Virus record (IMG/VR): IMGVR_UViG_3300033571_007861 | Coordinates: 5,871-69,870 of that record | Length of the DNA stretch: 64,000 nt | DNA from: a virus | Direction: 5' to 3' (one strand) | Shown here: piece by piece, positions 8,164 through 46,055 of the stretch | Position numbering within the stretch: position 1 is the first letter of the stretch | Layout of the letters: every line of letters begins with the position of its first letter | The notes under the pieces: generated by a model | Told to the model about the DNA's origin: nothing | Seen by the model: the letters and a program-made list of their open reading frames with translations, nothing else | The model's database searches: none | Translations under genes and position numbers: made by a program

Positions 8164-8370
8164 ATGTATGAATTCATGACGGCTGAGAAGGTAGGCAAAG
8201 AGGAAGCTAAAACAAAATGTTGTCCTGTTTGGTCTTTGCCTTCTAGGACAAATGAAAAACTATATTCCGTTGTTTTCCCTTGTGATGTTGGCGAGTGTTT
8301 TTATTGGATGGATAAGGACGAAGAATTCGGGATTTGTATTAAATTGCAGAAACAAGAGGATCAATCATGA
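8164..8370 (+). CDS. hypothetical Cys-rich protein
   Basis: GGGAG RBS; KCCP..CDVGECFYW..GIC pattern. Confidence 0.65.
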   Translation: MYEFMTAEKVGKEEAKTKCCPVWSLPSRTNEKLYSVVFPCDVGECFYWMDKDEEFGICIKLQKQEDQS

Positions 8371-8543
8371 TCTACTCCCTCTCCGAGTCCGACCGTGTAT
8401 TTGAGTTGCTGATGGAAAAGTTTGGTATGTTTGACTATACCTACTGGCGCTCTGATATAGGTTTGATTCGGTCTAGGGGGTATTATGATGGTGGGTGGCT
8501 AGAGGGCCGTAGGGTGGATTTGGTGGTTTATTGGGGTGCATAA
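8367..8543 (+). CDS. small protein (58 aa) ending in YWGA, not in the ORF track
   Basis: GAGGA RBS, ATGA overlap; MIYSLSESDRVFELLMEKFGMFDYTYWRSDIGLIRSRGYYDGGWLEGRRVDLVVYWGA*. Confidence 0.7.
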   Translation: MIYSLSESDRVFELLMEKFGMFDYTYWRSDIGLIRSRGYYDGGWLEGRRVDLVVYWGA

Positions 8544-8559
8544 CAAAGGAGTAAGCACT

Positions 8560-8859
8560 ATGTTGAAACGTCTAATGTCTGCTGTTCGTGCCTTTCGTTT
8601 TGAATGGAGGCACTATAGCGATAACACTGATTGGTCGCAGAGGTTTGATCTTTGGAAGAAAGACGATAACGCTTTCAAAATCACACATGAAGTATTTACG
8701 CGCCATCCAGATGACACGGTTGTTCAGGCACCTGTTAATCTTAAGCGTCGTTGTGTTGATGCGAACGGCAATGTGCGCTTTTTTGATGATATTCCAAATG
8801 GTTGCACTTTGGCTGACTACGGCGAAAATATTTTTTCAACATCTTCTGGACAACCCTAA
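8560..8859 (+). CDS. hypothetical protein
   Basis: AAGGAG RBS before ATG 8560. Confidence 0.65.
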   Translation: MLKRLMSAVRAFRFEWRHYSDNTDWSQRFDLWKKDDNAFKITHEVFTRHPDDTVVQAPVNLKRRCVDANGNVRFFDDIPNGCTLADYGENIFSTSSGQP

Positions 8860-9343
8860 AACCGGCGCATAATTTATTGCCACTGCCTAGCCGGTGAGTG
8901 GCAGGAGTAACCCCGGCAGTTGAGGCTTGACAGGACATTTTAACCTGCCTTAGCCAGACAAATCTTGGTTTGACAATGCTTGCGAAATGAGTCGGAAGTT
9001 ATTGTTATTTTGAGGGGAGTTTGGTTTCAAGTGACTCAACACAATCACATTGTTGATTGTTTATGGGGCGGGGCCTAGTGTCCCGCCTCCTCTTACTTTG
9101 GTTGTGTTTTGTTTCTATCTTGATTTTATTATTGTTCAACAGCATCCCCCACAAAAATGTTTACAATTACCACATGACGCTTGATGAAGAAGAAGCGTTA
9201 GAGTAACCAAAAGCATCCACACAATTTAATATCTAACACATCATCTACTTTGATAAAAAGTTGGTGGTCAAGTGCATGTTGCCAATTGTCCGGTGTTGGG
9301 GGCGGGGGTATGGTGGCGAATCAGGATTATGGGAGCAGGACAA

Positions 9344-9577
9344 ATGAGCTACGAACAATTGAACTCTGATTTAGCCGTTAAAGAAAAAGACGACAGAATT
9401 AAAAGTCTTGAAGAACAAATAAAAATTGAACGCCAACACTGCGCCGCCATCGTTCGTTCGTTTTTAATTACGCCTTGGTTTCTTAACGAGAACGGCAAGG
9501 GCTACAGGGACGAAGAACGTGCGCGCGTTGAGAACGAAAAGATAGAGAAGATTGCTTTGGCTGTGGAGAGGGGGTGA
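9344..9577 (+). CDS. hypothetical coiled-coil protein
   Basis: GGAG/AGGA RBS; ERQHCAAIV motif typical of phage accessory ORFs. Confidence 0.6.
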   Translation: MSYEQLNSDLAVKEKDDRIKSLEEQIKIERQHCAAIVRSFLITPWFLNENGKGYRDEERARVENEKIEKIALAVERG

Positions 9578-9581
9578 GGGG

Positions 9582-9842
9582 ATGAGTGACGACTACATAA
9601 CCGCGAATGTTCCGGGAAGATGGATCATGCAGAAAGACGACGAAATCACCCGCCTTCGTGCCGAGAACGAAAGGCTGCGGGAGGCGTTGAGAGATTGCGT
9701 ATCTGCATTAAAACATCCGATAAGGCCCATAAACAACGACGGTTCTCTTTTAAATAATATCAAGTTTGAGGTCGGAAGGGACATGGCCGTAAATGCGGCC
9801 CTCCGCCACGCCCGCGCCATCCTAGAAGGAGAAACCAAATGA
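9582..9842 (+). CDS. hypothetical coiled-coil phage protein
   Basis: DEITRLRAENERLREAL...ARAILEG. Confidence 0.65.
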   Translation: MSDDYITANVPGRWIMQKDDEITRLRAENERLREALRDCVSALKHPIRPINNDGSLLNNIKFEVGRDMAVNAALRHARAILEGETK

Positions 9843-10195
9843 CCATTGAAAACTACATGCAGTATCTTGGCATTGCCTTTGGCACCGCTTTTGTTTTTCT
9901 TGCAGTTGTGGCTGTGCTTTTTCTTTTGTTTATGTGTTTTATAGCGATCAAAGATGCCTGTTATTTTTTACAGGACCGTCAACCCGACACCTTGATTTTC
10001 CCAATGCAGTTAAAACGCAAAGACGAAGAAATCGAAAAATTACAAAAAGAATTACATGAAGTGAAAAGAGAGTTGCATGAAACCAAGCAATACGCTGGTG
10101 CGGCATTTCAAAGTATTGTTTTTGCAGAACAAGGAAACTATAAACATGAGGCAACAAAGATTGCACTAGAAGGCTTAAACAAAATGCGCCCGTGA
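9839..10195 (+). CDS. membrane-anchored coiled-coil protein
   Basis: N-terminal TM helix; AGGAG RBS; ATGA overlap. Confidence 0.65.
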   Translation: MTIENYMQYLGIAFGTAFVFLAVVAVLFLLFMCFIAIKDACYFLQDRQPDTLIFPMQLKRKDEEIEKLQKELHEVKRELHETKQYAGAAFQSIVFAEQGNYKHEATKIALEGLNKMRP

Positions 10196-10217
10196 TTAGC
10201 AGGAAAGCAATACACAA

Positions 10218-10565
10218 ATGGCTGAATCACCTTATGGTCTAAACCTTTTGGGATCGGTATTGCTTGATGAATTTGAAAGGCTTGGAGTTTTTGACATGCA
10301 AACAAAGGCACCATCTATGCCCAAGTATTTAATCCCCTCAACTGCTCACGAAGTCGCTCAAGCATTACCTCTCCAATCCAATCTTTTCGTCTGCCTTTCT
10401 TGCAACAAGCGTGGAACCCTTCACACTCTTTCCCATTCCGATTGCACACTAAAATACGAATCAGACACATCCGGTTGGAAGCCAGACCCACGCTACCCTG
10501 TCTTACACTTTGACAGTTCAGGCCGATTTACCGAATCAATATACCACATGGATGGATTGGCATAA
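10218..10565 (+). CDS. hypothetical protein
   Basis: 115-aa ORF with CxxC. Confidence 0.55.
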   Translation: MAESPYGLNLLGSVLLDEFERLGVFDMQTKAPSMPKYLIPSTAHEVAQALPLQSNLFVCLSCNKRGTLHTLSHSDCTLKYESDTSGWKPDPRYPVLHFDSSGRFTESIYHMDGLA

Positions 10566-10615
10566 AACACTACACAAAAACGGCATAGCCGTTTGCAAAC
10601 AAAAGGAGCAACCAA

Positions 10616-10891
10616 ATGACCAAGAAAGACACCACCCCCACTATTATCCTTGAACTCACGCCCCGTGAGGCGGCGGTGATTTTTGATGTTGTTTCAACTG
10701 CATCTTGGAATAAAGGGAACTTTTCCAAAGAGTGCAGGCAGATTAAAGAGGCTCTTCATGATGTTGGCCAAGAGTTTTTACACATTGAAACATATATGAG
10801 TGATAAAAATGGCATTGTTGAAAGCGAAAGTTTTTGGTTCATAGACGAGGCAAACGAACATGAAAACCTTCATCCTCATTCTGGCGCTTAA
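10616..10891 (+). CDS. hypothetical protein, paralog of 288..491
   Basis: AAGGAG RBS; shared ILELTPxEAA motif. Confidence 0.65.
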   Translation: MTKKDTTPTIILELTPREAAVIFDVVSTASWNKGNFSKECRQIKEALHDVGQEFLHIETYMSDKNGIVESESFWFIDEANEHENLHPHSGA

Positions 10892-11027: not shown

Positions 11028-11034
11028 CCTTCTC

Positions 11035-11105: not shown

Positions 11106-11129
11106 TCAGATTGGTGTTGTATTTAAAAG

Positions 11130-11266: not shown

Positions 11267-11461
11267 AAATCCAGCGCATGTGTGGGGCCGTTGGGGGCTA
11301 ACGGCTGACTTGCAAGCCTGCACATGGTAACTCGACCCTCGCGGGCTGGCTTTTCCCCTTGATTTTTGCTATAATTCCCTGATTTTCATTTTGCTTCGCC
11401 CTGCGATTGGGCGTCAAAGCACGAGCGCCATTCCTTCTTGGCGCAATTCGGGGATTATCTC

Positions 11462-13813
11462 ATGGACGATTTTAAATTCCTTCGCCAGCAAGAGCCTGAA
11501 AAGCCAGATTTGCCGGAAGGTGAGGAAATCGACCTTGGCGAACTTGAAATGGTCAAGTTAACCCCAGACGCCCTTGTTATTGACTTACCGGACGGGTCTG
11601 TTTCGCTAAATTTTGGCGGCCTTGGCGTCAAACCCCCGGACGAAGCATCGGATCACGATTCAAATTTAACCAATTTTATTGATGCTGGCGCTCTTGAGGC
11701 TATTTCAAACGACCTTGTTCGGTTGATTAGTGACGACGCCACGAGGCAAGAGCAGCGTCTTCAAGATATGGTAAAGGCGATTGAGCTGCTTGGCATTAAA
11801 CTGAAAGAACCCAAAGCCGAGCCTAACTCAGAAGGCATTAGCACCGTCACCCATCCTCTTCTTCTTGAGGCGGTTCTCCGCTTTCAGGCCAACGCCCATG
11901 GCGAGTTTTTGCCTGCCGATGGTCCGGTGAAGGTGGCGAATGAAGGTGATAACACGAAGGAATTGAACGAACAGTCTAATCAGCTTGAAGACGACTTCAA
12001 TCACTATCTGACTTCCGGAGCCCCGGAATATTATCCCGATTTTGATAGAGGATTGTTTTCTCTTGGGCTTAATGGCGAGATTTACCGCAAGATTTACTGG
12101 CATCCGATCAAGCGCCGTCCGGTCGTTGAGACGATCAACCGCAAGGACATCATTTTAAGCGATGGCGCTGTAAGCCTTGAGGCTTGTGGTCGCATTACGC
12201 ATCGTTCTCGTATGAGACCGAGCATCGTCAAGCAGATGCAGCTTGTTGGCGCTTGGCGCGATGTGCCGCTTGGCGGTGGAGTCGTGTCTCCGGACACTAA
12301 CCGTGTTGACGAGAAGCTAAGTGATATTTCTGGTGTTCAGCAGAAATTGCTGATTTCCGGTCAGGAAGAGCAGGATCGTGAGATTTACGAATGTTATTGC
12401 GAACTTGATCTTGTTGGGTTTGAGCATGAAGAAGACGGCGATAAAACGGGACTGCCGTTGCCTTACCGGGTGACGATTGACAAGGAAAGCCGCCAAATCC
12501 TCGAAATCCGCAGATGGTGGGAGGAAGACGATGAAAACTTTGTCCGCAAGGAATGTTTTGTATCGTATGTGTTCGTTCCTGCATTTGATGGGCTCAATCT
12601 TGGTCTGTCACATATTCTTGGCAATTCATCGCGCGCTCTCACGGCAGCGTGGAGAATAGCGCTTGATTCTGGAATGTTAGGCAACTTCCCCGGCGGCATT
12701 ATGGCTAGAGCTGTTGGAAAACAGCAAACGACAACTATCCGCGTAGGTCCGGGGCAGGTTGCGCCGGTTGATTCTGATGGCGTTCCGATCAATCAGATGT
12801 TTATGCCGTTACCTTACAAGGACGTTTCTCCCGGCTTTGTTTCAATGATTCAAATGATTGATCAGGCTTCGCAGCGTCTTGGCGGCACGGCTGAAACGGC
12901 TGTTGGCGAAGGCCGGGCAGATGCTCCCGTGGGAACCACAATCGCTTTGATAGAGCAGATGCAGAAGATTTTGTCTGCTGTTCACAAAAGAATGCACGTT
13001 TCTCAGAGCCGTGAGTTTGCACTTTTGAAGGATTTGTTCCGCAGAGACCCGAAGGCTTTGTGGCGCAGCAACAAAAATCCGGGCTTCTATAAAGACGTTG
13101 CAATGCTGCAGGAAGCTTTGGACAACAAGGACATTGTGCCGAAGGCTGATCCGAATACGGCTTCGCACACGATGCGCGTTCAAAAGGCCATTGCTTTGAA
13201 AACCTTAGCCTCTCAAAACCCAATGGCTTATGACCAAATTGAAGTTGATCGTCGTGTGTTGTCTATGATTGGCATAGACGATGTGGACGATCTTTTCAAC
13301 AAAAACCCGCCAATGCCTCCGCAGCAGGATGAGGCTAAATTGCTTGCGGCTAAGGCTTCTATGGCAAACGCGCAAGCTAAACTGATGGATACGTCGATTA
13401 AGGCGCAGCAGGCTCAGGGCGATATGTCTCTTAAGGCGGCTGATATTCAGACGAAGAGCATTGAGGCTGCAACCAAGCGGTCTATTGCCAAGGTTGACGC
13501 ACAGAACCATGCGAAAGACCGTGAGGGCAAGATCGCTCTTGAGAAGATGAAGCTTGTCCAGACTTCTATGGTTCATGCTGATAAACTTGCCCATGATCAT
13601 CAGAACAAAGGTTTAGACTTTGAGCGCGCTATGCGTGAGAAGGAAATGGACTTGACCCATAATCGCGTAACCAAGGGTTTGGATTTGGAAGAGGCTCGTC
13701 GTCAGCATGAGATGGACATGGCTCATGAGGCTGATCAGGCGTCTACGGATCGTTTGCATGATTTGATTATGGCTCGTCAGAATATTCCGCAACAGTTTGA
13801 TCAGGGCGAATAA
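11462..13813 (+). CDS. portal protein
   Basis: first large gene of the head module after terL; HPLLLEAVLRFQA and APVGTTIALIEQ..SAVHKRMH motifs; long coiled-coil C-terminus. Confidence 0.85.
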   Translation: MDDFKFLRQQEPEKPDLPEGEEIDLGELEMVKLTPDALVIDLPDGSVSLNFGGLGVKPPDEASDHDSNLTNFIDAGALEAISNDLVRLISDDATRQEQRLQDMVKAIELLGIKLKEPKAEPNSEGISTVTHPLLLEAVLRFQANAHGEFLPADGPVKVANEGDNTKELNEQSNQLEDDFNHYLTSGAPEYYPDFDRGLFSLGLNGEIYRKIYWHPIKRRPVVETINRKDIILSDGAVSLEACGRITHRSRMRPSIVKQMQLVGAWRDVPLGGGVVSPDTNRVDEKLSDISGVQQKLLISGQEEQDREIYECYCELDLVGFEHEEDGDKTGLPLPYRVTIDKESRQILEIRRWWEEDDENFVRKECFVSYVFVPAFDGLNLGLSHILGNSSRALTAAWRIALDSGMLGNFPGGIMARAVGKQQTTTIRVGPGQVAPVDSDGVPINQMFMPLPYKDVSPGFVSMIQMIDQASQRLGGTAETAVGEGRADAPVGTTIALIEQMQKILSAVHKRMHVSQSREFALLKDLFRRDPKALWRSNKNPGFYKDVAMLQEALDNKDIVPKADPNTASHTMRVQKAIALKTLASQNPMAYDQIEVDRRVLSMIGIDDVDDLFNKNPPMPPQQDEAKLLAAKASMANAQAKLMDTSIKAQQAQGDMSLKAADIQTKSIEAATKRSIAKVDAQNHAKDREGKIALEKMKLVQTSMVHADKLAHDHQNKGLDFERAMREKEMDLTHNRVTKGLDLEEARRQHEMDMAHEADQASTDRLHDLIMARQNIPQQFDQGE

Positions 13814-18084: not shown

Positions 18085-18765
18085 ATGCTTCCTGACAATA
18101 TAAACAAAAACTGTGGAATATACAGGATATATAACAAATCCAATGGTAAGTTTTACATTGGATCAAGCAAAAACATTAAACAAAGAAAACAAAAGCATTT
18201 TTATCAATTAAATAAAAATAATCATAAAAATGATTATTTGCAAAATGCTTGGAATTCACAGCAAAATAAAGAAGATTTTGATTTTCAAGTTTTTATATAT
18301 TGTAAAGAGCACGAGTTGATTTTATTAGAACAAAAATGCATAGATATTATGAATCCACATTATAACGAATCAAGAATAGCTGGAAGGCCGGACTTAAATG
18401 AAAATACAAGAAAAAAAATATCAAAGTCCGTAAAAAATTATTTAATTAGCTTAGGTGATAATCACCCAAGCAAAAGACCAGAAGTAAGAGAAAAAATGAG
18501 TCTTTCCTCCAAGGGGAGGCCAAAAACAAAAGAAAGTATTGAAAAACAAAAACATACCAAAGCTTCGCCCAATTTTAAGTGCCCTAATAAAAGCATTGAA
18601 AAAAGAACCAAACATAGTGAGTTATTAAAATCAAAAGGAGAGTTTCATGCCAGCAAGAGAGACGATGTTAGAAAAAAGATGAAAGATTATTGGCGCACAG
18701 GTGCATCTTTATATACACTTTGGTATAGATCAAATGTAATGCATCAATATTATTGGGGCGCTTGA
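18085..18765 (+). CDS. free-standing GIY-YIG homing endonuclease ending in YWGA
   Basis: CGIYRIYN..FYIGSS..R..H..LEQ..YN; AT-rich. Confidence 0.88.
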   Translation: MLPDNINKNCGIYRIYNKSNGKFYIGSSKNIKQRKQKHFYQLNKNNHKNDYLQNAWNSQQNKEDFDFQVFIYCKEHELILLEQKCIDIMNPHYNESRIAGRPDLNENTRKKISKSVKNYLISLGDNHPSKRPEVREKMSLSSKGRPKTKESIEKQKHTKASPNFKCPNKSIEKRTKHSELLKSKGEFHASKRDDVRKKMKDYWRTGASLYTLWYRSNVMHQYYWGA

Positions 18766-18767: not shown

Positions 18768-21701
18768 ATGCACACCGCCATAAAAAACGCTTTGCTGCTT
18801 GCAAAAAATCGTCGCAAATATCAAACGGGCGGATCAACACCGTATGGCGTTGTTGATTTGGGCGATAAAATAATCCTTGGCTCTCCTCATGGTGATAAAA
18901 TCGAACTGCCAGAGGACATTCAATCTCGCGTTAGGGATGTGGCTCAAAAGCACGGCGCATATTACGAGGGCACTGGGGGAGACATTGAGTCAAACAAAGA
19001 GTTGCTGCCCGAATATCGAGGGTCTTGGGACGAGCAATATGCAAGAAACATAAGTGGATACCCCACGGAATATCTTGCTCCGATGTTTAGCAACGTCGAA
19101 GTAAACAGACCTCATGAGATTTTTGAAGACCCTAAGAAAACCATAATGGCAAGTATTTTGGCCAATCAAGCCAAGGCCAGATATATTAAAGACAGGGATT
19201 TTAACGAAAAGGTTTTGCGGGATTTTTTGCTTGAGGGCAGCGAACCGGACACTAATTTTCTTAAATTATCTCAGGAACCCGCCACAAAAGAAAACCTTCT
19301 TAAGTTTTTTACAACGGGTGAAAAACTTATGTGGCCGGATAACTGGCAAGAATATCCTCATAACCTTGGAAAGATTGCAAAACGATTTGAAGATGCAAGA
19401 AATTCTTATTTGTTGAACGCGCCTCCCGGCGTTTACGTCGCTGGAGCCGGTCATATCCCAGAGCTTAAACGTCTTAAAAAAGATTTGAACGTCATTGGCG
19501 GCGAAAGGTCTGGTTATGGCATTGGCGGCACCCCAACCGACGACCAACAAGACTTCACCGGCAGCGTTGAACTAGGACGCCCCGACGAGGTTTCTCAGGA
19601 AGCGTTTTTACAAGAACAACTCCAAGGCTCTGCGCCTCAGTATGATCCTGAAGCTGGAATGCTGACGGCTAAGCGCGCAGGGTTGATGGCGGCAGGATTT
19701 GCGCCGGGGAGTGGTATTGCCACGGCTGCTGGTCAATTTCCGACTGCTGAGGGCGGTAAAGAGCCGTCAATGGCTGAGGATTGGCGCAAGGGTGAATATC
19801 TTTCTGCTGGCCTTAAAGGTTTGGGCGCTGCTGGCGATATTGCCTATGGCGTTCCCTTGGTCGGCCCTGCTGTTGGCGCTGCGATGAAAGCGCCGTTGGT
19901 TGCTAAACTTGCCATGGCTGCTGCGCCGATGGCGAAGATTGCTGGCGAAGTAGCGCCTGCTGTTGAAACTGTTTCACGTGTAACAAACCCCATCGGCATG
20001 TATTCGGCTGCTGCCGAAGCCGCTCGTGCTTTGCCCCAAGAAAAAGGCACCCTGCAGCAAATGCTGGCGACGATGAAGGGTGTGACGCCGGAAGAGCTAC
20101 ATTGGTCGGGGGTGAGTGAGGCGTTTGCGGGAAAACCCACTGTCACGCGCGAGGAACTGGCAAAGCATTTTGAGGAACGGTTGCCGGGGGTAAGTGAGAC
20201 GGTGTTGGTTGATGAGCCAATTAAAGGAAGCGGATGGGAGTCTGTTGAGGGCGGAACAAAGTTTGGAGAACACACACTCCCCGGCGGTGAAAACTATCGG
20301 GAGGTTGTGTTACATTTGCCAGAGATTTCTCCAGAAGCACAAAAACTTGAAGCGCGTAGAAGAGAAATAGAAGCACTTGGTCGTGAGGCGACAGAAGAAC
20401 AAAAAACCGAGTGGGCAAATATTATGAATCGCCTTCAACCCGAACAAAGGGACATTGAAGGATTAGATCAATTTAAAGGTTTTCCAACTTTTCAATCTCA
20501 ACACTGGAACCAACCCAACGTCCTTTCTCATCTCCGCATGTCCGACCGCACAGGCCCGGATGGCGAGAAAGTATTGCATCTTGAAGAATTGCAGAGTGAT
20601 TGGGGGCAGAAGGGGAGGAAGGAAGGGTTTAGGGATCAAGAATCTTTTGACAAAGCAAACAGAAGAGTAAAGGAAATTCAAGAAAAAGAAAAGGAATTGA
20701 ATAATAAATTAAATGATATTAACAAAAATATGATGATTGACGAAGATGCTTTTGAAACTATGCTTAGTTCAAATCCAGACCCCGTTCTTGTTAAAAAGTT
20801 TTACCAACAAAATCAAAACATATTAGATGCGTCAAAACCAATAGATAAAGAATTGGAAAACTTGCAAAATGAACGACTTTCACTTGTAAGTGATATGGAA
20901 AACTTTGCTAGGGGCGTTCCTTCCGCCCCCTACGTCGCCTCCCCCGAAGGCAAGCATACATTGTCGTGGGTTGATCTTGGCCTCAAGCGCGCATTGAAAG
21001 AAGCGGCTGAGGGTGGGTATGACAAACTTATTTGGACCCCCGGCCCTGAACAAGCGGCGCGGTATGATTTGTCGAAGCAAATTCAACGTATTGAGTATGA
21101 TCCAAAATTTCAAATGTTAAACGCTTACAAACCCAATGGCTTCAATGCCATTGAAAAATCAAATGTTAAACCAGAACAACTTTCGGAATATATTGGAAAA
21201 GAGGCTGCAGAAAAATTGTTGCAGTCTCAGCCAGATAGTTGGGGGATTTATAAACTTGCTGATGAAGACTTAAAAGTCGGCGGCGAGGGAATGAAGTCTT
21301 TTTACGACAAGATCGTTCCCAATCAACTGCAAAAGATTGTCAAGAAATTAGATAAAGACGCCAAGGTTCAAATTGGCGGTCATGCGATTGAGACGGATGA
21401 TGGCGCAATCAACGCCCACGTCATCCAAATCACACCTAAAATGCGCGAAGCCATCTTAAAAGGCTTTGCTGCATATGCTGATGGCGGCGCTGTTAAGCCA
21501 AAACAACGCAATTCCGCGCATCTTGGTCCGATTATTGAGCGCGGAATGAAGATTACGCAGAAATTGAGCGCCAAAAAGGGCCAAAAACCCTCAACCACCA
21601 TCCCAAAACCCGTAAAATACGTCCCTCAAGCGAAAGAAAACGCCGAGTTTCGCAAATTAATGGCTGAGGTGGACGAGTTGCTTGAGAAATTCAAAGATTG
21701 A
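18768..21701 (+). CDS. large modular (polyvalent-like) protein
   Basis: shares the SQEAFLQEQLQGSAPQYDPEAG leader with 13816; GGENYRE..HW..LEELQSDW..GYD..GM..FYD domain; xxGG-delimited. Confidence 0.75.
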   Translation: MHTAIKNALLLAKNRRKYQTGGSTPYGVVDLGDKIILGSPHGDKIELPEDIQSRVRDVAQKHGAYYEGTGGDIESNKELLPEYRGSWDEQYARNISGYPTEYLAPMFSNVEVNRPHEIFEDPKKTIMASILANQAKARYIKDRDFNEKVLRDFLLEGSEPDTNFLKLSQEPATKENLLKFFTTGEKLMWPDNWQEYPHNLGKIAKRFEDARNSYLLNAPPGVYVAGAGHIPELKRLKKDLNVIGGERSGYGIGGTPTDDQQDFTGSVELGRPDEVSQEAFLQEQLQGSAPQYDPEAGMLTAKRAGLMAAGFAPGSGIATAAGQFPTAEGGKEPSMAEDWRKGEYLSAGLKGLGAAGDIAYGVPLVGPAVGAAMKAPLVAKLAMAAAPMAKIAGEVAPAVETVSRVTNPIGMYSAAAEAARALPQEKGTLQQMLATMKGVTPEELHWSGVSEAFAGKPTVTREELAKHFEERLPGVSETVLVDEPIKGSGWESVEGGTKFGEHTLPGGENYREVVLHLPEISPEAQKLEARRREIEALGREATEEQKTEWANIMNRLQPEQRDIEGLDQFKGFPTFQSQHWNQPNVLSHLRMSDRTGPDGEKVLHLEELQSDWGQKGRKEGFRDQESFDKANRRVKEIQEKEKELNNKLNDINKNMMIDEDAFETMLSSNPDPVLVKKFYQQNQNILDASKPIDKELENLQNERLSLVSDMENFARGVPSAPYVASPEGKHTLSWVDLGLKRALKEAAEGGYDKLIWTPGPEQAARYDLSKQIQRIEYDPKFQMLNAYKPNGFNAIEKSNVKPEQLSEYIGKEAAEKLLQSQPDSWGIYKLADEDLKVGGEGMKSFYDKIVPNQLQKIVKKLDKDAKVQIGGHAIETDDGAINAHVIQITPKMREAILKGFAAYADGGAVKPKQRNSAHLGPIIERGMKITQKLSAKKGQKPSTTIPKPVKYVPQAKENAEFRKLMAEVDELLEKFKD

Positions 21702-23068: not shown

Positions 23069-23929
23069 ATGGCTAACTCAGGTATATATAAAATTGTGGA
23101 TATTTCAACAGGTGATTTTTATATTGGATCAACTAAAAATTTTAAATTAAGAAAGAAGAAGCATTTTAACGATTTAAAAAATCAAAAACATCACAACAAC
23201 AAGATTCAAGCCATATACAACAAAGAAAGAGTCTTGAGTTTTGAAATATATATAATTTGTTCTGTTGAATTTTTACAAATGTATGAACAAAGATGTATAG
23301 ATATATTGAAACCAAAATTAAACATTTCTATTGACACTATTGCTTTTATGAGGGGTAAAAAGCATTCTCCCGAAACAAGAAAAAAGATGAAAGAAAACGC
23401 AAAAAGAGGTGAGAACAGCCCATCAAAACGCCCGGAAGTTAGAAAAAAGATGAGTGAAAGCAGTTGGATGAAGACACCGGAGGGTTCTTTATCTGTAAGC
23501 GGAGAAAACCACGCAGGCGTAAAACTTACTAAAGAACAAGCAATAGAAATTTTATATTCTCTGGAACCGACAAGTGTTTTAGCTCGTCGCTATAATATTG
23601 CACAGTCTGTAATTTCAAGAATTAGAAGCGGGGAAAGATGGAAGTGCATTCGTCCAAAAGATTTTGTTCCAAAGGGCATTCCTGAAAAAATATGGTATAG
23701 GTCCGGGCCTGACAATAAATTTTATGGCAAAAAACACTCTGTTGAATCTAGATTAAAAATCAGTGGAGAAAACGCCCATAAATCTAAGTTAAAATTAGAA
23801 GATGTATTAATTATCAGAGAATCAAAAGAACCTCCCAAAATTTTGGCTAAAAAATTTAATGTTTGTGAGGCTTCCATAAGAAACATACAAAAAAGAAAAT
23901 CTTGGAGATTTATAGATGGGCTCTCTTGA
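23069..23929 (+). CDS. free-standing GIY-YIG homing endonuclease with NUMOD3/HTH repeats
   Basis: SGIYKI..FYIGST; GKKHSPETRKKM and FYGKKHSVES. Confidence 0.9.
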   Translation: MANSGIYKIVDISTGDFYIGSTKNFKLRKKKHFNDLKNQKHHNNKIQAIYNKERVLSFEIYIICSVEFLQMYEQRCIDILKPKLNISIDTIAFMRGKKHSPETRKKMKENAKRGENSPSKRPEVRKKMSESSWMKTPEGSLSVSGENHAGVKLTKEQAIEILYSLEPTSVLARRYNIAQSVISRIRSGERWKCIRPKDFVPKGIPEKIWYRSGPDNKFYGKKHSVESRLKISGENAHKSKLKLEDVLIIRESKEPPKILAKKFNVCEASIRNIQKRKSWRFIDGLS

Positions 23930-27372: not shown

Positions 27373-28287
27373 ATGGCCGTTAATCTTTCAGCCATTAAAG
27401 ACCTGCTTCTGCCGGGTCTACGTGGCGTCGAGGGCAAGTATGCCCAGATTCCTAGCCAGTGGGATAAAGTCTTTGAGAAGGCCAAGTCCAACATGGCTCT
27501 GGAGCGCACCGCCGAAATGCGTTACCTCGGTCTTGCTTCTATCAAGACTGAAGGCGGCGCTGTCAACTTTGACAACAATGCCGGTGAGCGTTTCGTCTAT
27601 AATCAGGAGCACTACGAAATCGCGCTTGGTTACGCGATCACTCGTAAGGCAATTGATGACAACCTCTACAAGACACAGTTTACGCCGACGAACCTCGGCC
27701 TGATCGAATCCTTCGGTCAGACGAAGGAAATCTACGGCGCAAACATCCTCAACACGGCGACGACCTACAATCAAGCTGTCGGTGGCGACGGTCAGGCTCT
27801 CTGCTCGACTGCTCACCCGATTGACGGTGGCACGGTTGCGAACCGCCCGGCTGTTGACGTTGACCTCAACGAATCGTCGCTGCTCAACGCGATGGTTTCG
27901 ATCAGAACGAACTTCAAGGACATCGCTGGCCTGAAGATGTTCGCTCGTGGTCGCAAGCTGATCGTTCCCCCGGCGCTGGAGCCCGTTGCTATCCGTCTCA
28001 CCAAGACGGAACTTCGCCCCGGCACGGCGAACAACGATGTCAACGCCATTCATACGACCGCAGGGGGCCTCCCCGAAGGTTATATGGTCATGGACTTCTT
28101 GACCTCGAACTTCGCTTGGTTCCTGCTGACAAATATCAAGGGTTTGGTCTACATGGAGCGTGTTCCTTACGAAATGGACATGCAGGTGGACTTCACCACG
28201 GACAATTTGTTAGTGAAAGGTTATGAGAGGTACAGTTTTTCGTACTACAACTGGCGTTCGATTTTTGGATCGTTCCCGACAAGCTAA
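27373..28287 (+). CDS. major capsid protein
   Basis: LLLPGL..EGG..ALGYAIT..DD..GGDGQALCSTAHP..KLIVPPAL..ERYSF; strongly biased codon usage. Confidence 0.88.
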   Translation: MAVNLSAIKDLLLPGLRGVEGKYAQIPSQWDKVFEKAKSNMALERTAEMRYLGLASIKTEGGAVNFDNNAGERFVYNQEHYEIALGYAITRKAIDDNLYKTQFTPTNLGLIESFGQTKEIYGANILNTATTYNQAVGGDGQALCSTAHPIDGGTVANRPAVDVDLNESSLLNAMVSIRTNFKDIAGLKMFARGRKLIVPPALEPVAIRLTKTELRPGTANNDVNAIHTTAGGLPEGYMVMDFLTSNFAWFLLTNIKGLVYMERVPYEMDMQVDFTTDNLLVKGYERYSFSYYNWRSIFGSFPTS

Positions 28288-37415: not shown

Positions 37416-37449
37416 TTGATCCTACAATGACGGGGTGGTATAAAAACCA

Positions 37450-38619
37450 ATGCTTTCTGAAGCAGAACATTATAAGAAAAATTGGCAATCTGCGCAAAAA
37501 GAGTTGCGTCAGAAAGAAAAAAATTGCGCCTTTGTTTATGTTCATTTAGAGGCTGATACCGGCAATCCTTTTTATGTTGGGATTGGGGTTAACGAAAATC
37601 GGCCTTGGAATAAAACACATAGAACAAACAAACACAAAAACCGCATTAATAAACACGGCATGAGAGTTGAAATTATCACCCAAAAGATTTCTTGGGAGAA
37701 TGCTAAACTCTGGGAAATTTGCTGGATTAAAAATCTTCGTGATGGAGGATTTAATCTTGTTAATTTGACGGATGGTGGTGATGGAACAACAGGATATGTT
37801 CGCACAGAAGAAGAGCGGCTTAAAATAAAAGAAGTAAATAATAGACCAGAAATTAAAAAAATTCACAGAGAAAATATGTTGGGTGACAAAAACCCAATGA
37901 AAAATCCAGACACGGCAGAAATTGTTGCACAAAAAAATAGAGGCAGAAAAAGGTCTCAAAAATTTCGTGAAGATGCTTCTGCTAGAAGAACTGGAGTTCC
38001 TCTTAAAGAGGAAACAATTCAAAATATGAAAAAAGGACAAAAACTTCGTTGGCAATCAAAAACAAACGAAGAAAAAAAGATTTATGGAGATAAAATAAAA
38101 AATGGACATCAAAAAAGATCAAGCGAAGATAGAAAAGAAACAATAAAATTGGCTTGGGAAACAAGAAGAAAAAGAAAAGCGAAAAAAGAAGGAGTTTCTT
38201 ACGAATCTTTGCTTCCAAAACCAAAAGTAAAAATATCCAGAGAAGAAAAAATTAAAATTTTAAAAGAAATTGCGTCCAGACCAGAGGTAAAAAGAAAACA
38301 ATCTGAAAAAAGAAAACTAGCTTGGGAAAACAAAGAATATAGAAAAGCCGCTTCTTCGGGAGTAGCTTTGACATGGAAAAATGTTTTAATCAGGCAAAAA
38401 AGAATTGACGGTATTTTAAAATCAAGAGAAAATGGTGAGTTCGGAAAACAAGTCTCAATAAGAAATTTTGATGATTGGTCTGATCCATTTGAAAGACAAA
38501 AAAGAATTGATGGTATGAAAAAAGCTTGGTCTGATCCAAGTAAAACAATGCGGCGCGTTTTTGCTTCGTGGGATAAATCTAATCGTTGGGTTCTTAAGAA
38601 TTTATATTGGGGGGCTTAG
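37450..38619 (+). CDS. free-standing GIY-YIG-like endonuclease ending in YWGA
   Basis: FVYVH..PFYVGIG..R..E..LVNLTDGGDG; Lys-rich repeats; AT-rich. Confidence 0.85.
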   Translation: MLSEAEHYKKNWQSAQKELRQKEKNCAFVYVHLEADTGNPFYVGIGVNENRPWNKTHRTNKHKNRINKHGMRVEIITQKISWENAKLWEICWIKNLRDGGFNLVNLTDGGDGTTGYVRTEEERLKIKEVNNRPEIKKIHRENMLGDKNPMKNPDTAEIVAQKNRGRKRSQKFREDASARRTGVPLKEETIQNMKKGQKLRWQSKTNEEKKIYGDKIKNGHQKRSSEDRKETIKLAWETRRKRKAKKEGVSYESLLPKPKVKISREEKIKILKEIASRPEVKRKQSEKRKLAWENKEYRKAASSGVALTWKNVLIRQKRIDGILKSRENGEFGKQVSIRNFDDWSDPFERQKRIDGMKKAWSDPSKTMRRVFASWDKSNRWVLKNLYWGA

Positions 38620-39333
38620 GTGGGCTACGCATCAAAACTTGGCAAAGCCACAATAAGCGCAACAAATCCCACAGCCGCAGCCGTGTGTGACAGATGTTCG
38701 GCGGTTTACAACTTAAATCATCTCCGCTGGCAAAACGATTACCGGGGCAGAAACCTAGCCAACATTCGCATCCTTGTTTGCGAGCGTTGTGAAGATGAAC
38801 CACAAGCTCAGCTTAAACCCAGAATCATCCCGCCCGATCCCGTTTCGGTCAAAAATGCCCGCCCGGAGCGTTATTGCGAATACGAGTCAAACACGCGCAC
38901 AACGCAGGGCAACAGTATAGACTTTTGGACTGGCCTCCCTATTCCCGGCGGCGACACGCGCATCACGCAGGACGATAATACCCGTTCTACGCAGATCACA
39001 GGCGAGGCCCCCGGAGGCTTGGACAACACCCCAGGCACCAGCTTTCTTGTCCCCGGCAATGATCTTCTTGGGCCTGAGCAAGGGCTTCCATGCGGCTTTA
39101 ATCAAATTCCTCAGACTGGGCCGCTCGCGCCTTATCTTATCAACTTGACATGGTATCCAACTCTTGTCCCTGATCCCCTGCTTTGGGGCGGTCAGCAGAT
39201 TATGTGGGGACCACAGACCATATCTTGGGGCGGTCAGTCTGGAACATTCTCTGGTGTAAATTGGACTAATAACCTTGGCGGTGTTATAACTTGGACGACA
39301 AACGTGCCGTCAACTTCACCTGTAATGGATTGA
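38620..39333 (+). CDS. hypothetical protein with N-terminal CxxC..CxxC
   Basis: CDRC..VCERC..PQ..DP..NARPE; GTG start abuts the endonuclease stop. Confidence 0.7.
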   Translation: MGYASKLGKATISATNPTAAAVCDRCSAVYNLNHLRWQNDYRGRNLANIRILVCERCEDEPQAQLKPRIIPPDPVSVKNARPERYCEYESNTRTTQGNSIDFWTGLPIPGGDTRITQDDNTRSTQITGEAPGGLDNTPGTSFLVPGNDLLGPEQGLPCGFNQIPQTGPLAPYLINLTWYPTLVPDPLLWGGQQIMWGPQTISWGGQSGTFSGVNWTNNLGGVITWTTNVPSTSPVMD

Positions 39334-40408: not shown

Positions 40409-40417
40409 GGTAAAACA

Positions 40418-41089
40418 ATGGCTTCAATTCAAATACCTAACCTTCCAGCAGCCATCGCTCTTAGTGGTTTGGAGCAGCTTGAGATTGTTCAGGACGGCGT
40501 ATCTAGCCGAACGACGACTCAGGCTATTGCTAATTTAGCAAACATAACCCCTCTGCAATCTCAAGTTGCAGTGCTCCAAGGGAATGTGACTACTCTTCAG
40601 GGGAATGTGACTATTCTTCAAACCGATGTAGCCAATCTTCAAAATGTCCCTTGTGCTTCATACTTTAGCACGGCCACTCAAAACCACGGCGCTATTGGTA
40701 ATGAAGGTATTGTTTCTTGCAACAACACTGATTTTCAGTATGGCATCAGTCTTGTCTCGGGAACACAATTTACGGCTGGTGTCAATGGTATTTATAATTT
40801 TCAATTTTCTCTTCAGCTTGTTTCAGCCGTAAACAACAAACATGCTTATGTTTGGCTAAAGAAAAATGGCATAGTGGTCCCTCAGTCAAACACTGAGGTT
40901 GATCTTCCGAACAAAAACTACGGTTATGTTGCGGCTTGGAATTTTCTACTTGCTCTAAATGCCGGTCAATATATCCAACTCGCTTGGACATCGGACGACA
41001 GTGTTAACATCAATGCTAACGCTGCGCCACCTTATGGTCCTGCTATCCCTTCTGCTATCGTAACCATGAACCTTATCCGCCGCACTTAA
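40418..41089 (+). CDS. structural protein, coiled coil plus C1q/TNF-like head
   Basis: heptad VxxLQ repeats; GIYNFQFSLQ..WLKKNG..PAIPS. Confidence 0.65.
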   Translation: MASIQIPNLPAAIALSGLEQLEIVQDGVSSRTTTQAIANLANITPLQSQVAVLQGNVTTLQGNVTILQTDVANLQNVPCASYFSTATQNHGAIGNEGIVSCNNTDFQYGISLVSGTQFTAGVNGIYNFQFSLQLVSAVNNKHAYVWLKKNGIVVPQSNTEVDLPNKNYGYVAAWNFLLALNAGQYIQLAWTSDDSVNINANAAPPYGPAIPSAIVTMNLIRRT

Positions 41090-41106
41090 ATAAGAGAGCC
41101 AGAAAA

Positions 41107-42038: not shown

Positions 42039-42042
42039 CATC

Positions 42043-44157: not shown

Positions 44158-44160
44158 GTC

Positions 44161-44523
44161 ATGTCTAATGACAGCATGACATCTGCGTTGCAAAACGCAG
44201 TTATCGCTATAAACAAAAGGACATCAACTGATCTTTATCTTAAAGGGCAGTTTACTTCTGACACTTATGCGGGCTCAACGACGGTTGTTATTGCCCAGAC
44301 AAAGGGCCAGTTAATCAATGTCTGCATTACGACCTCTGCTGCTGCTACAGTGACGTTTTACAATCAATCGTCTTCTGGAACCTTGTTTCCGATTAAGGTT
44401 CTCTATGTTGTTCCCGCAAGTGCGACGCAGGGTGTTTATCCGATTGGTCAAGTGTTTAATACAGGTTTGGTCATGGTTGTTGGTGCGGGCGTTTCAGCTA
44501 ATGTGACTTACTCTTTGGGATAA
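44161..44523 (+). CDS. hypothetical structural protein
   Basis: 120-aa beta-rich ORF in the tail module. Confidence 0.65.
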
Positions 44524-44528
44524 AGAAA

Positions 44529-45095
44529 ATGCCGTTGAAGCGTGGAAAATCTCAGGCTGCGATCAGTTCTAATATTAGCGAACTTGTTCACTCAGGCCGT
44601 CCGCAAAAGCAAGCCGTCGCCATCGCGCTTAACACGGCCCGTAAGGCTATGGAGCGTGGCGGGTCGCCTCACAACGACCCCAAGGTGTTTCATGGGCCTT
44701 TGAAAGCGCCTATCCCCGGTCGGACGGATCGGATGAAGGTTCACGTCGCCAGCGGAAGCTATGTGATCCCCGCTGACATTGTTTCGGGCATTGCTGAGGG
44801 AAACACTGAAGCCGGGTTTGAAATCATCAAGAAAATGATTGATGACAAAAAGTCTCAGGGTGGTCGCGTTGGTATGATTAGCAAGTATGGGTTAAACGGC
44901 AAATATCACGAGGCTAGAGGAAAGGTTCCTGTGATTGTTGCTGGTGGGGAATATATTCTTAGCCCAGAGGAAGTAGAGCTATTTGGCGATGGCGATTTAA
45001 ACGCTGGCCATAAGGTTTTGGACAAGTTTATTTTGTCTCAGAGAAACAAACTGATCAAAACTCTTAAAAAACTACCTCCGCCAGCAAAGGACTAA
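44529..45095 (+). CDS. small basic module fused through ERGG to a duplicated G(S/E)Y(V/I) domain
   Basis: [17 protein letters not shown]; [21 protein letters not shown] and [17 protein letters not shown]. Confidence 0.75.
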
Positions 45096-45158
45096 AGGTT
45101 TATTTTCAAAAGGTTTTGGAGTATAATGAGTTAAACGCCAAATGTAAACGAGGATAAT

Positions 45159-46055
45159 ATGGGTGTTCTTTACGAGCATTGGAGAACTGATACAAACGAG
45201 TGTTTTTATGTCGGCATTAGCTGGGCAAACGAAAATACTCGCCCTCATGATTTGACCCCAAGAAACCCCCATCACGGGAATATTGTCGCTAAATTGAAAG
45301 AAAATAATTTTGAAGTAGACGTTCGCATACAAGCGTGGGATTTGAATAAGGAAGAGTTGTGCGAATTAGAAGTAATGCAGATTGCTTATTGGCGTGATCT
45401 AATTGGAAATAGACTTACAAACATTGCTCAGGGTGGAGAAGGGTTGCGGCAATGGACCGATGAGATGAAAGAAAAACTATCTGCAAAAAAAATAAAAATG
45501 CTTAACGATCCCATTTTAGGGGCTTCAATAAGAAAAAAATTATCGGAGGCAAGAAAATCTTATTTTTATGATCCTAATTTTGGAAAAGAAAGAAGAGAAT
45601 CTGCAAAATTAAGATTGAAAAAAACATCAACTGAATATTGGTCAAATGAAGATTTAAAGGAACAGCGTAAATTATTGCATTCAAAAAAAATAAAAGAGTA
45701 TTGGAATGATGAATTATGCGGAGAAAAAAGAAAAAAAGTTGTGTCAGAAAGATTTTCTGGCGATAAAAACCCTTCTAAAAATCCAGAAATAAAATTAAAG
45801 AAAGAACTGACTAGAAAATCTAAGGGAAGTGATTTTTACAAATTAAGCGAAAAGGCTAAAAAACAAATTGGTTTGAAAAATAAACAACATATGTTAAATA
45901 AAGGCGATTTAATTCACACTAAAAACTTAGACGTAAGAAACAAAAACAGTAAAACCAGAAAAATCCAATGGTCATCTCCTGAATTTAGGTCAAAAATGAT
46001 GTATTATTGGTGGTGGTCTAAAAATGTTAAAAATTATTTTTATTGGGGGGCATGA
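45159..46055 (+). CDS. free-standing GIY-YIG-like endonuclease ending in YWGA, paralog of 4508..5266
   Basis: LYEHWRTDTNECFYVG..MQIAY..LTNIAQGGEG. Confidence 0.85.
   Translation: MGVLYEHWRTDTNECFYVGISWANENTRPHDLTPRNPHHGNIVAKLKENNFEVDVRIQAWDLNKEELCELEVMQIAYWRDLIGNRLTNIAQGGEGLRQWTDEMKEKLSAKKIKMLNDPILGASIRKKLSEARKSYFYDPNFGKERRESAKLRLKKTSTEYWSNEDLKEQRKLLHSKKIKEYWNDELCGEKRKKVVSERFSGDKNPSKNPEIKLKKELTRKSKGSDFYKLSEKAKKQIGLKNKQHMLNKGDLIHTKNLDVRNKNSKTRKIQWSSPEFRSKMMYYWWWSKNVKNYFYWGA

What the first reader, a model, noticed from the sequence alone, without database searches (positions are those of the whole stretch)
8367..46055. Four ORFs share the identical C-terminal tag YWGA-stop
Seen: three endonucleases (18085..18765 ..LWYRSNVMHQYYWGA*, 37450..38619 ..SWDKSNRWVLKNLYWGA*, 45159..46055 ..WWWSKNVKNYFYWGA*) and an unrelated 58-aa ORF missed by the track (8367..8543 ..GWLEGRRVDLVVYWGA*) end the same way, each with a Trp 14-16 residues from the end. 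The codons differ synonymously (GGC/GGG/GGG/GGT; GCT/GCT/GCA/GCA; TGA/TAG/TGA/TAA), which points to selection on the peptide. The tag spans two GIY-YIG subfamilies and is absent from the close paralog 4508..5266 and from 23069, so it behaves as a portable module. Inference: an undescribed C-terminal signal, such as a degron limiting nuclease toxicity, a docking or packaging tag, or a nascent-peptide termination/re-initiation signal. In the three endonucleases the stop abuts or overlaps the next gene's start. The 58-aa ORF could be a stand-alone decoy or the donor of the tag.
Basis: partly seen in the sequence, partly recalled or inferred. Interest (0 to 1): 0.88.

Follow-up and report, generated by a model that had tools for sequence, protein, structure and literature searches.

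The report
Conserved YWGA end-cap of mobile phage nucleases
The shared YWGA ending is the last four residues of a roughly 35-residue end module carried by a family of mobile phage DNA-cutting enzymes, not a free-standing four-residue tag, and one small unrelated protein that ends the same way remains unexplained.

Summary
YWGA occurs four times in all six frames of the 69,870-bp phage contig, each time directly before a stop; about 0.01-0.02 such ends are expected.

In the three GIY-YIG homing endonucleases it ends a ~35-aa module, K..W..PE.R.KM....W[WY].SNV....[YF][WFY]G[AST]-COOH.
- An exhaustive profile search of 1.84 billion proteins found 26 full copies, and all 26 sit at the exact C-terminus.
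- The module is joined to at least three catalytic-domain types and is swapped often.
- Its first half is a nuclease-associated repeat.

My best reading is the terminal cap of the DNA-binding region. Selection acts on the peptide: Gly, Ala and stop codons vary, and W can be F or Y.

The G-run also lies where the next gene's Shine-Dalgarno must be. A contig from another sample lacks HEG2 exactly and has a 22-nt spacer with an ordinary SD instead.

The 58-aa ORF is a conserved small gene (10 variants, all ending YWGA). It shares only those four residues with the module. Its ending is unexplained.

The scan has not reported this before.

The parts
18085..18765 (+). HEG1 (P0001, 226 aa): classical GIY-YIG homing endonuclease with the YWGA-capped C-terminal module
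   Evidence: PF01541 E 2.6e-10; phrog_314 homing endonuclease E 2.7e-17; module HMM E 7.6e-10
18655..18762 (+). C-terminal cap module of HEG1 (36 aa)
   Evidence: row of alignment A3; profile positions 1-36 match residues 191-226 of 226
37450..38619 (+). HEG2 (P0002, 389 aa): divergent GIY-YIG endonuclease with the cap module
   Evidence: phrog_314 E 4.4e-8; PF01541 only E 0.082, below the cut-off; module HMM E 3.9e-11
38503..38616 (+). C-terminal cap module of HEG2 (38 aa, with a 2-aa insert)
   Evidence: residues 352-389 of 389
37419..38619 (+). HEG2 cassette as delimited by a HEG-less allele: 31-nt leader plus ORF through its stop codon
   Evidence: a contig of run X4 joins 37418 to 38620, skipping 1201 nt, with 22 other letters that contain an ordinary SD; two loose-end records at 37418 run on with a near-identical spacer into the first 8 letters of the downstream gene (tables 5, 5c, 7)
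45159..46055 (+). HEG3 (P0003, 298 aa): 'VLYEHWR..NECFYVGIS'-type GIY-YIG endonuclease with the cap module
   Evidence: no Pfam or PHROG hit; AF2 pLDDT 86.5, with weak Foldseek hits to GIY-YIG nucleases; module HMM E 3.1e-15
45945..46052 (+). C-terminal cap module of HEG3 (36 aa): helix 274-290, then an 8-residue non-helical tail KNYFYWGA
8367..8543 (+). P0004: conserved 58-aa gene of unknown function that ends YWGA and shows no other likeness to the module
   Evidence: AF2 predicts a helix plus three strands
18751..18765 (+). YWGA codons plus stop of HEG1; the G-run lies 9 nt before the ATG at 18768 of the next gene
   Evidence: anti-SD pairing -4.7 kcal/mol
38605..38619 (+). YWGA codons plus stop of HEG2; the six-G run lies 5 nt before the GTG at 38620
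   Evidence: anti-SD pairing -9.3 kcal/mol
46041..46055 (+). YWGA codons plus stop of HEG3; the six-G run lies just before ATG 46052/46055 of the acetyltransferase gene
   Evidence: anti-SD pairing -9.3 kcal/mol
8529..8543 (+). YWGA codons plus stop of P0004; the next gene (ATG 8560) has its own AAGGAG
4508..5266 (+). Paralogue with an HEG3-type catalytic domain and a helix-turn-helix-like end in place of the cap
   Evidence: (weak HTH hits at residues 207-246)
23069..23929 (+). Paralogue with an HEG1-type catalytic domain, NUMOD3 and an HTH-like end in place of the cap

Best explanation
YWGA-stop is the invariant end of a ~35-residue C-terminal module of a family of free-standing GIY-YIG homing endonucleases from uncultured freshwater-type phages.

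The module has two parts. The first is one copy of a helical repeat, K..W.[DN]PE[YF]R.K, that occurs in tandem in the DNA-binding regions of many GIY-YIG and HNH nucleases. The second is a family-specific aromatic cap, W[WY].SNV....[YF][WFY]G[AST]-COOH.

Shown here:
- the module is conserved as a peptide;
- it is always at the very C-terminus;
- it is joined to several catalytic-domain types and is exchanged often;
- in sister proteins a helix-turn-helix-like end occupies the same position.

Inferred:
- it is the terminal DNA-binding or anchoring unit of the enzyme;
- the aromatic tail folds back on the last helix, with Gly allowing the turn, so nothing can follow it.

Secondary role, partly shown: these cassettes sit directly on the start codon of the next gene. 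The TGG-GGN codons of W-G therefore lie where that gene's Shine-Dalgarno must be. At HEG2 they replace a native SD.

The 58-aa ORF is a separate, real small gene. Its identical ending is not explained by this reading. It could be a co-opted scar of a lost cassette or a convergent ending.
For: Homology of the tails:
- They align pairwise over about 30 aa.
- 13 of the 25 whole-protein homologues of P0003 end in the cap: YWGA 5, YFGA 4, FWGS 2, YWGT 1, YYGA 1.

Position:
- 26 of 88 hits in the exhaustive profile search match all 36 profile positions, and all 26 end at the protein's last residue.
- Among the 115 proteins held there are 0 internal cap motifs.

Repeat nature of the first half:
- The other 62 hits match only the first part of the profile (best stretch ending at positions 15-27), and 61 of the 62 do so in 3-10 stretches.
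- Pfam finds GIY-YIG in 16 of them, LEM-3_GIY-YIG in 3, SegE_GIY-YIG in 2, HNH families in 5 and NUMOD3 in 7.

Catalytic types carrying the cap: PF01541 type, a PF22945-like type, and a type Pfam does not detect.

Swapping:
- 9 label changes on a 36-row tree, at least 4 forced by starred branches; shuffled labels give a mean of 9.0.
- P0006 is 94% identical to P0003 over residues 1-105 and unrelated afterwards.

Structure:
- AF2 predicts helices 257-272 and 274-290 followed by an 8-residue coil.
- The Atlas look-alikes of this part are NUMOD3-rich nuclease clusters; this is a lead only.

Peptide-level selection.

SD role:
- A HEG-less contig has a 22-nt spacer with an ordinary SD.
- Anti-SD pairing of the tails is -9.3, -9.3 and -4.7 kcal/mol, against a median of -5.25 for 18 reference genes and -5.8 for the native spacer.
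Against: - DNA binding was not tested in any way.
- AF2 gives the last ~8 residues only about pLDDT 66 and no regular structure, so fold-back packing is not shown.
- Foldseek found nothing for the C-terminal part.
- A strictly terminal, short, aromatic motif is also what a docking or degradation signal looks like.
- P0004, a conserved unrelated protein, ends in the same four residues. The chance expectation for ORFs of 50 aa or more is about 0.0009, and this reading does not account for it.
- The three flanks share no DNA motif that a common DNA-binding unit might be expected to recognise.
- Some 'cap-less' homologues come from contigs of about 1 kb and may be truncated. That would inflate the count of swaps.
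Confidence: 0.62

Rival explanations
1. The last residues are a true C-terminal short linear motif. Under this reading a host or phage factor (a protease adaptor, a hub protein or a virion component) reads aromatic-aromatic-Gly-small-COOH, and both the nucleases and the unrelated 58-aa protein use it.
For: - The position is strictly terminal in 26 of 26 profile hits, and none of the 115 proteins held has an internal copy.
- The tail is predicted non-helical and of lower confidence, as for a peptide that orders on binding.
- P0004 is a real gene under conservative substitution. Its 10 variants (78-98% identity) all end YWGA, in a different predicted fold context.
- A fourth YWGA end by chance is expected 0.0009-0.02 times.
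Against: - Conservation extends about 30 residues upstream in the nucleases, and the tail is never found without that module, except in the P0004 family.
- No other protein in this genome ends this way, and no non-nuclease ORF in the 86 loci examined (675,720 bases), 80 of them from related phages.
- No partner is known.
- No paper among those listed links such an ending to nucleases.
Confidence: 0.17
2. The conservation is at the nucleotide level: TGGGGNGC is kept as the Shine-Dalgarno or coupling signal for the downstream gene, and the peptide is a by-product.
For: - In 4 of 6 intact cases with DNA, the next start lies within -4 to +2 nt of the stop.
- The tails pair with the anti-SD as well as or better than typical genes do.
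- At HEG2 the cassette replaced a native SD.
- The third base of the Gly codon is a purine in HEG2, HEG3 and L001, where there is no other SD. It is a pyrimidine in P0004, L002 and L004, which have their own SD downstream, and also in HEG1. This rests on n = 7.
Against: - 6 of 41 tails replace W with F or Y, which removes the G-run but keeps an aromatic residue.
- Tyr and Ala, and about 30 residues upstream, are conserved although they have no SD role.
- L002, L004 and P0004 are followed by separate canonical SDs.
- The third positions of the Gly and Ala codons vary freely.
Confidence: 0.07
3. For the 58-aa ORF only: its YWGA-stop is a scar. The last few codons of a lost endonuclease cassette were fused in frame to a neighbouring small ORF and then kept.
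For: - Cassettes end exactly at the stop codon.
- A decayed copy in L004 still carries an intact ...FYWGA-stop piece upstream of the next gene's SD.
- P0004 lies in a variable stretch of small ORFs behind the terminase gene that has no counterpart in 80 related loci.
Against: - No residual likeness to the module or to the whole endonuclease exists in any frame of 7.8-8.6 kb (HMM E limits 100 and 50).
- The tail is the end of a predicted beta-strand of a compact fold.
- All ten variants keep it, together with many other invariant residues.
- I found no allele with a nuclease gene at this site.
Confidence: 0.3

Closest known systems
NUMOD/IENR-type nuclease-associated modular DNA-binding motifs of GIY-YIG and HNH homing endonucleases (Pfam PF07460 NUMOD3, PF07453 NUMOD1). 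The review of the GIY-YIG superfamily, PMC1564403, describes 'different patterns of NUMODs' C-terminal to the catalytic domain; I read passages of it. The original NUMOD paper is recalled, not seen.
   Same: - Short helical units in the C-terminal DNA-binding region.
- Combined freely with different catalytic domains.
- Co-occur with NUMOD3 in some cap-bearing proteins (P0050, P0082).
- Atlas structural look-alikes of the HEG3 tail are NUMOD3-rich clusters.
   Different: - No Pfam or PHROG model matches the cap.
- The cap is Trp/Tyr-rich and occurs once per protein.
- It was at the exact C-terminus in all 26 full profile matches.
C-terminal helix-turn-helix 'anchor' of I-TevI and I-BmoI. For PMC3664794 I saw only the abstract in the search listing: 'a molecular anchor and a flexible tether'.
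   Same: It occupies the same place in the architecture. Sister proteins with the same catalytic domain (window 4508..5266; P0015, P0017, P0018) end in HTH-like segments where HEG3 has the cap.
   Different: It is not an HTH by any model. It is predicted as one helix plus an extended aromatic tail. Binding to DNA is untested.
Mobile endonuclease cassettes that bring a replacement for what they displace, such as gene-end replacement by mitochondrial or phage endonuclease ORFs.
   Same: The HEG2 cassette removed the native 22-nt spacer and its SD. The cassette's own last codons supply an SD-like G-run at the right distance.
   Different: What is replaced is a ribosome-binding site, not coding sequence. 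The replacing letters are the nuclease's own conserved codons.
C-terminal recognition tags such as the ssrA-type ...LAA-COOH degron or C-terminal clamp- or SSB-type docking peptides (recalled from general knowledge; not tested here).
   Same: A short, strictly terminal, hydrophobic/aromatic ending with a small last residue.
   Different: No sequence match to those motifs. No partner and no stability data. In the nucleases the ending is embedded in a larger conserved module.

Membership tests
GIY-YIG homing endonucleases | GIY-YIG catalytic domain recognised by a family model | tested here: met
   P0001: PF01541 E 2.6e-10, above the cut-off, and phrog_314 E 2.7e-17.
GIY-YIG homing endonucleases | Same, for P0002 and P0003 | tested here: inconclusive
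   P0002: PF01541 E 0.082, below the cut-off, but phrog_314 E 4.4e-8. P0003: no model hit. Its AF2 N-domain has pLDDT above 95. The best Foldseek rows are GIY-YIG nucleases (UvrC, I-TevI, PD-T4-3), but only at E 0.2-1.7. Y17, G19 and E71 are invariant and R28 and N88 nearly so in alignment A2.
GIY-YIG homing endonucleases | Mobility: presence/absence polymorphism of the gene at a fixed site | tested here: met
   HEG2 only: a contig of run X4 joins 37418 to 38620 without the gene, while run X3 holds the gene (record 9, 279 nt, 2 differences). Not shown for HEG1 or HEG3.
GIY-YIG homing endonucleases | Site-specific cleavage of the gene-less allele | not testable with these tools
   Needs an enzyme assay.
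NUMOD3 (PF07460) | Match to the Pfam model over the shared tail | tested here: not met
   No NUMOD3 hit in P0001-P0003 at E up to 0.1. Only 3 of 35 cap-bearing proteins have NUMOD3 anywhere, and in P0050 and P0082, where I saw the coordinates, it lies upstream of the cap.
Shine-Dalgarno / translational coupling element | Purine-rich stretch complementary to the anti-SD, 4-10 nt before the next start, and no other SD | tested here: met
   Met for HEG1, HEG2 and HEG3. Not the case for P0004, L002 or L004, which have separate SDs. Function is untested.
C-terminal degron or docking motif | The motif works outside its native domain and on unrelated proteins | tested here: inconclusive
   One unrelated protein family (P0004, 10 variants) carries it. 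No non-nuclease ORF does in 86 loci, 80 of them from related phages. There is no functional test.

The most novel reading that the evidence does not exclude
Aromatic-aromatic-Gly-small-COOH is a genuine C-terminal recognition signal in this phage-host system. A factor that controls the level, location or activity of otherwise toxic nucleases reads it, and the conserved 58-aa protein P0004 carries the same ending to compete for or connect to that factor. In addition, the W-G codons are kept because they give the cassette a built-in ribosome-binding site, which lets it land directly on the start codons of structural genes.
Probability: 0.14. Interest if true: 0.7.

Novelty: new variant of a known kind. 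Interest (0 to 1): 0.36.

Why it matters
It adds an undescribed, strictly terminal module to the known kit of interchangeable DNA-binding pieces of GIY-YIG homing endonucleases. It also gives a simple sequence signature for finding them, since many of these proteins escape Pfam altogether.

The sharp domain-boundary swap between P0003 and P0006, together with the frequent gain and loss of the cap, is a clean natural example of target switching by module exchange.

The HEG2 allele pair shows a cassette that replaces a host gene's ribosome-binding site with its own last codons. This is a small but concrete case of a selfish element limiting its cost.

The identical ending on an unrelated conserved small protein is a real statistical oddity. 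It is cheap to test at the bench.

Tried and rejected
**Chance.** Rejected for the set of four.

**Decayed nuclease gene under P0004.** Neither the module HMM (E limit 100) nor the whole-protein HMM (E limit 50) finds anything in any frame of 7.8-8.6 kb. A likeness I saw by eye between 'ECFY' in ORF 8164..8370 and the catalytic motif got no score.

**Gene splitting by HEG1.** The nearest annotated phage, MW202675.1 (portal 39% identical), also has several separate large genes behind the portal. I therefore found no sign that HEG1 split one gene.

**Shared DNA motif in the 150-nt flanks of the three nuclease genes.** Only one 9-mer with up to 1 mismatch is shared, at inconsistent distances.

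**Frameshift or slippage on the G-run.** I considered this only by eye. The runs have 4, 6, 6 and 4 G, so I dropped it.

**Searches that returned little or nothing.**
- Foldseek on both AF2 models found nothing beyond weak GIY-YIG rows.
- Megablast of 7.9 kb against the phage collection gave no match.
- The pattern NV..Q.YWGA-stop found only the contig of L001 in viral contigs.
- In 185,579 prokaryote genomes it gave 3 matches, all internal ...YWGAW in unrelated proteins, because my TRR also reads TGG.
- A P0004 peptide pattern found nothing in viral contigs.
- Earlier scan notes by words and by sequence gave nothing on this motif.

**Coverage in other samples.** In runs X3-X5 the bins over HEG3 and the acetyltransferase gene, and over HEG2 in X4 and X5, have much lower summed contig depth than their flanks. 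For HEG3 no clean joint was found: one joint, 44725 to 46076, has side 22 and unknown letters between. I make no claim about HEG3 absence.

No dN/dS could be computed over the tail, and spacing to the next gene is known for only seven tails.
- Supplements of papers were not consulted.

**Papers.**
- PMC1564403: passages read by 'find'.
- PMC3664794, PMC12774661 and PMC3045599: only the abstracts in the search listings.
- 'YWGA' anywhere in the text: 74 papers, and none of the 15 listed concerns nucleases.


Full report
**1. The observation**

The codons are TAT TGG GGN GCN with four different Gly/Ala/stop combinations.

The window is bases 5871-69870 of a 69,870-bp contig. A six-frame scan of the whole contig (5,734 stop-terminated pieces) finds YWGA exactly four times, each time directly before a stop.
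- Composition predicts 0.21 occurrences anywhere and 0.009 at an end.
- 100 Markov shuffles gave means of 0.23 and 0.02.

The pattern is therefore not chance. The Trp 13-16 residues from the end is also there.

**2. Context**

The contig is a tailed phage. I identified these genes:
- a large terminase (5254-7824), interrupted by an intein with a LAGLIDADG domain;
- a portal (11438-13813), large internal/ejection proteins and a major head protein (27373-28287);
- an adaptor, tail and fibre proteins, and an amidase.

There is no close DNA relative in the phage collection. The best portal match is 39% identical, to MW202675.1, followed by Pelagibacter, Roseobacter, Planktothrix and Caulobacter phages.

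The three nuclease genes are free-standing, between structural genes. HEG1 is a classical GIY-YIG protein (PF01541 E 2.6e-10). HEG2 and HEG3 are divergent. The HEG3 catalytic domain folds with high confidence, and its best, though weak, Foldseek rows are GIY-YIG nucleases.

**3. The shared element is a module, not four residues**

BLASTP aligns the three tails over about 30 residues.

Thirteen of the 25 whole-protein homologues of HEG3 end in the same way: W[WY].SNV....[YF][WFY]G[AST], with YWGA 5, YFGA 4, FWGS 2, YWGT 1 and YYGA 1. The other 12 have Lys/Arg-rich or helix-turn-helix-like ends.

I built a 36-position profile from five tails taken by reference from the window and from loci L001 and L002. 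HMMER ran it against 1.84 billion representative proteins and returned 88 hits at E up to 0.001.
- 26 hits match through position 36, and all 26 end at the last residue of the protein.
- The other 62 match only the first part of the profile (best stretch ending at positions 15-27), and 61 of them do so in 3-10 stretches. This is the repeat K..W.DPE[YF]R.K.

Pfam finds GIY-YIG (16), LEM-3_GIY-YIG (3), SegE_GIY-YIG (2), HNH families (5) and NUMOD3 (7) in those 62. It also gives spurious-looking GerD (30) and STI1 DP (10) matches to the repeat itself.

So the first half of the module is a nuclease-associated repeat, and the second half is a family-specific aromatic cap. Among all 115 proteins held, 41 end aromatic-aromatic-Gly-small and none has an internal cap. 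No Pfam or PHROG model covers the cap.

**4. Portability**

The cap sits on at least three catalytic types:
- 'VLYEHWR..NECFYVGIS' (HEG3 type);
- 'YVYGHIRPDTG.IFYVGKG' (PF22945-like);
- classical PF01541 (HEG1 type).

I built a tree of the first 100 residues of the HEG3 type from 36 rows, 26 with the cap. Presence of the cap needs 9 changes, at least 4 of them forced by well-supported branches. Shuffled labels need the same number (mean 9.0; 331 of 500 shuffles were as low).

P0006 is 94% identical to HEG3 over residues 1-105 and unrelated afterwards.

One caveat applies: several cap-less proteins come from contigs of about 1 kb and might be cut short.

**5. Peptide or nucleotide?**

Seven tail DNAs are available: four from the window, plus L001, L002 and a decayed copy in L004. 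They use all four Gly codons, three Ala codons, both Tyr codons and all three stops. Six of 41 tails replace Trp with Phe or Tyr, which removes the G-run but keeps an aromatic residue. Selection is therefore on the peptide.

The letters also matter locally. The next gene starts 2 nt after HEG1, 0 nt after HEG2, overlapping HEG3, and 2 nt after the L001 gene, with no other SD.

Anti-SD pairing of the 20 nt before those starts compares as follows:

| Site | Pairing (kcal/mol) |
|---|---|
| After HEG2 | -9.3 |
| After HEG3 | -9.3 |
| After HEG1 | -4.7 |
| 18 reference genes, median | -5.25 |
| Random positions, median | -2.5 |

A contig of an independent run (X4) joins 37418 to 38620 and skips the 1201 nt of the HEG2 cassette. 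Between the two sides it has 22 other letters containing an ordinary GAGGA 7 nt before the GTG (pairing -5.8). Two loose-end records show the same arrangement. Run X3 holds HEG2 itself. The joint has a short side (24 letters), so it rests on few records.

The cassette thus ends exactly at its stop codon and replaced the native ribosome-binding site. I read this as a secondary use of the W-G codons. It is not the cause of their conservation, because L002, L004 and P0004 are followed by separate SDs.

**6. What the cap does**

AF2 on HEG3, with a 35-row alignment and mean pLDDT 86.5, predicts a string of helices after the catalytic domain. It then predicts helices 257-272 and 274-290, followed by an eight-residue non-helical tail, KNYFYWGA, at pLDDT about 66.

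The Atlas look-alikes of residues 255-298 are NUMOD3-rich nuclease clusters; this is a lead only. In sister proteins with the same catalytic domain the same place is taken by HTH-like ends.

My best reading, at about 0.6, is a terminal DNA-binding or anchoring unit whose aromatic tail closes a small hydrophobic core. This is inference, because nothing here tests DNA binding.

A terminal docking or degradation signal remains a live rival, at about 0.17. The strict terminal position, the disordered-looking tail and P0004 all fit it.

**7. The 58-aa ORF**

It has a GAGGA 7 nt before its ATG, which overlaps the stop of the preceding ORF.

Its cluster holds ten variants of 78-98% identity. Nine are 58 aa and one is annotated with a longer start. 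Their substitutions are conservative (S/T, I/V, L/M, E/D, Y/F), and all ten end YWGA. It is therefore a real gene.

It has no other relatives and no counterpart in 80 related terminase-neighbour loci. It matches no family or fold. The module HMM aligns only its last four residues, at 0.7-2.1 bits.

AF2 predicts a helix and three strands, with YWGA at the end of the last strand. This comes from a two-row alignment: one model has pLDDT 78 and the others 44-56.

A fourth YWGA end among ORFs of 50 aa or more is expected 0.0009 times. I cannot decide between a co-opted scar of a lost cassette (L004 shows that decayed copies keep the tail), a convergent functional ending, and coincidence.

**8. Novelty and verdict**

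The genes are ordinary mobile endonucleases. The cap module seems undescribed:
- no model in Pfam or PHROGs;
- nothing relevant among the 15 listed of 74 papers holding 'YWGA';
- the passages I read of the superfamily review list only NUMODs and HTH;

It is rare. I hold about 39 nuclease proteins with it, only one contig in IMG/VR has it, and the strict pattern I used found none in prokaryote genomes.

This is a new variant of a known kind. It is of modest interest, raised a little by the exact-terminus rule, the RBS-replacing cassette and the unexplained P0004 coincidence.

Noticed in passing
window 5254-7824: The large terminase gene carries an intein with a LAGLIDADG domain (Intein_splicing at residues 318-575, LAGLIDADG_3 at 422-493). 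Many related loci match over only about 1.5-1.7 kb, spanning query residues about 20-856, and so probably lack the insert. L007 and L008 (70% identical) and L009 and L010 (62-66%) match over about 2.5 kb and probably have it.
   Followed up: partly
window 4508-46055: Five GIY-YIG endonuclease genes (4508, 18085, 23069, 37450, 45159) plus the terminase intein lie within 42 kb of one phage. That is an unusually high load of homing elements in the structural gene block.
   Followed up: partly
L004:15-811: A decayed copy of the HEG3-type gene. Residues 1-117 match at 15-368. The frame is then lost, but a 15-aa piece ...FYWGA-stop survives just before the same downstream SD and start as in L002.
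   Followed up: partly
P0003 versus P0006 (protein hits): The two proteins are 94% identical over residues 1-105 and unrelated afterwards. This is a sharp recombination point at the boundary between the catalytic domain and the DNA-binding region.
   Followed up: yes
proteins P0033-P0114 (one search hits): The tandem repeat K..W.DPE[YF]R.K of nuclease DNA-binding regions has no Pfam family of its own. It is picked up as 'GerD central core' (30 of 62) and 'STI1/HOP DP' (10 of 62), which look like repeat artefacts.
   Followed up: partly
window 40821-40891: In contigs of runs X4 and X5, a 69-nt stretch inside gene 40418..41089 is replaced by a diverged stretch of the same length, while the flanks stay alike. 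This is a small hypervariable patch in a structural-region gene.
   Followed up: no
window 37419-37449 and 45096-45158: HEG2 and HEG3 have their own promoter-like leaders (TTGATC...TATAAA and ...TATAAT). HEG1 starts directly after the stop of the 1422-aa gene, with no leader.
   Followed up: no
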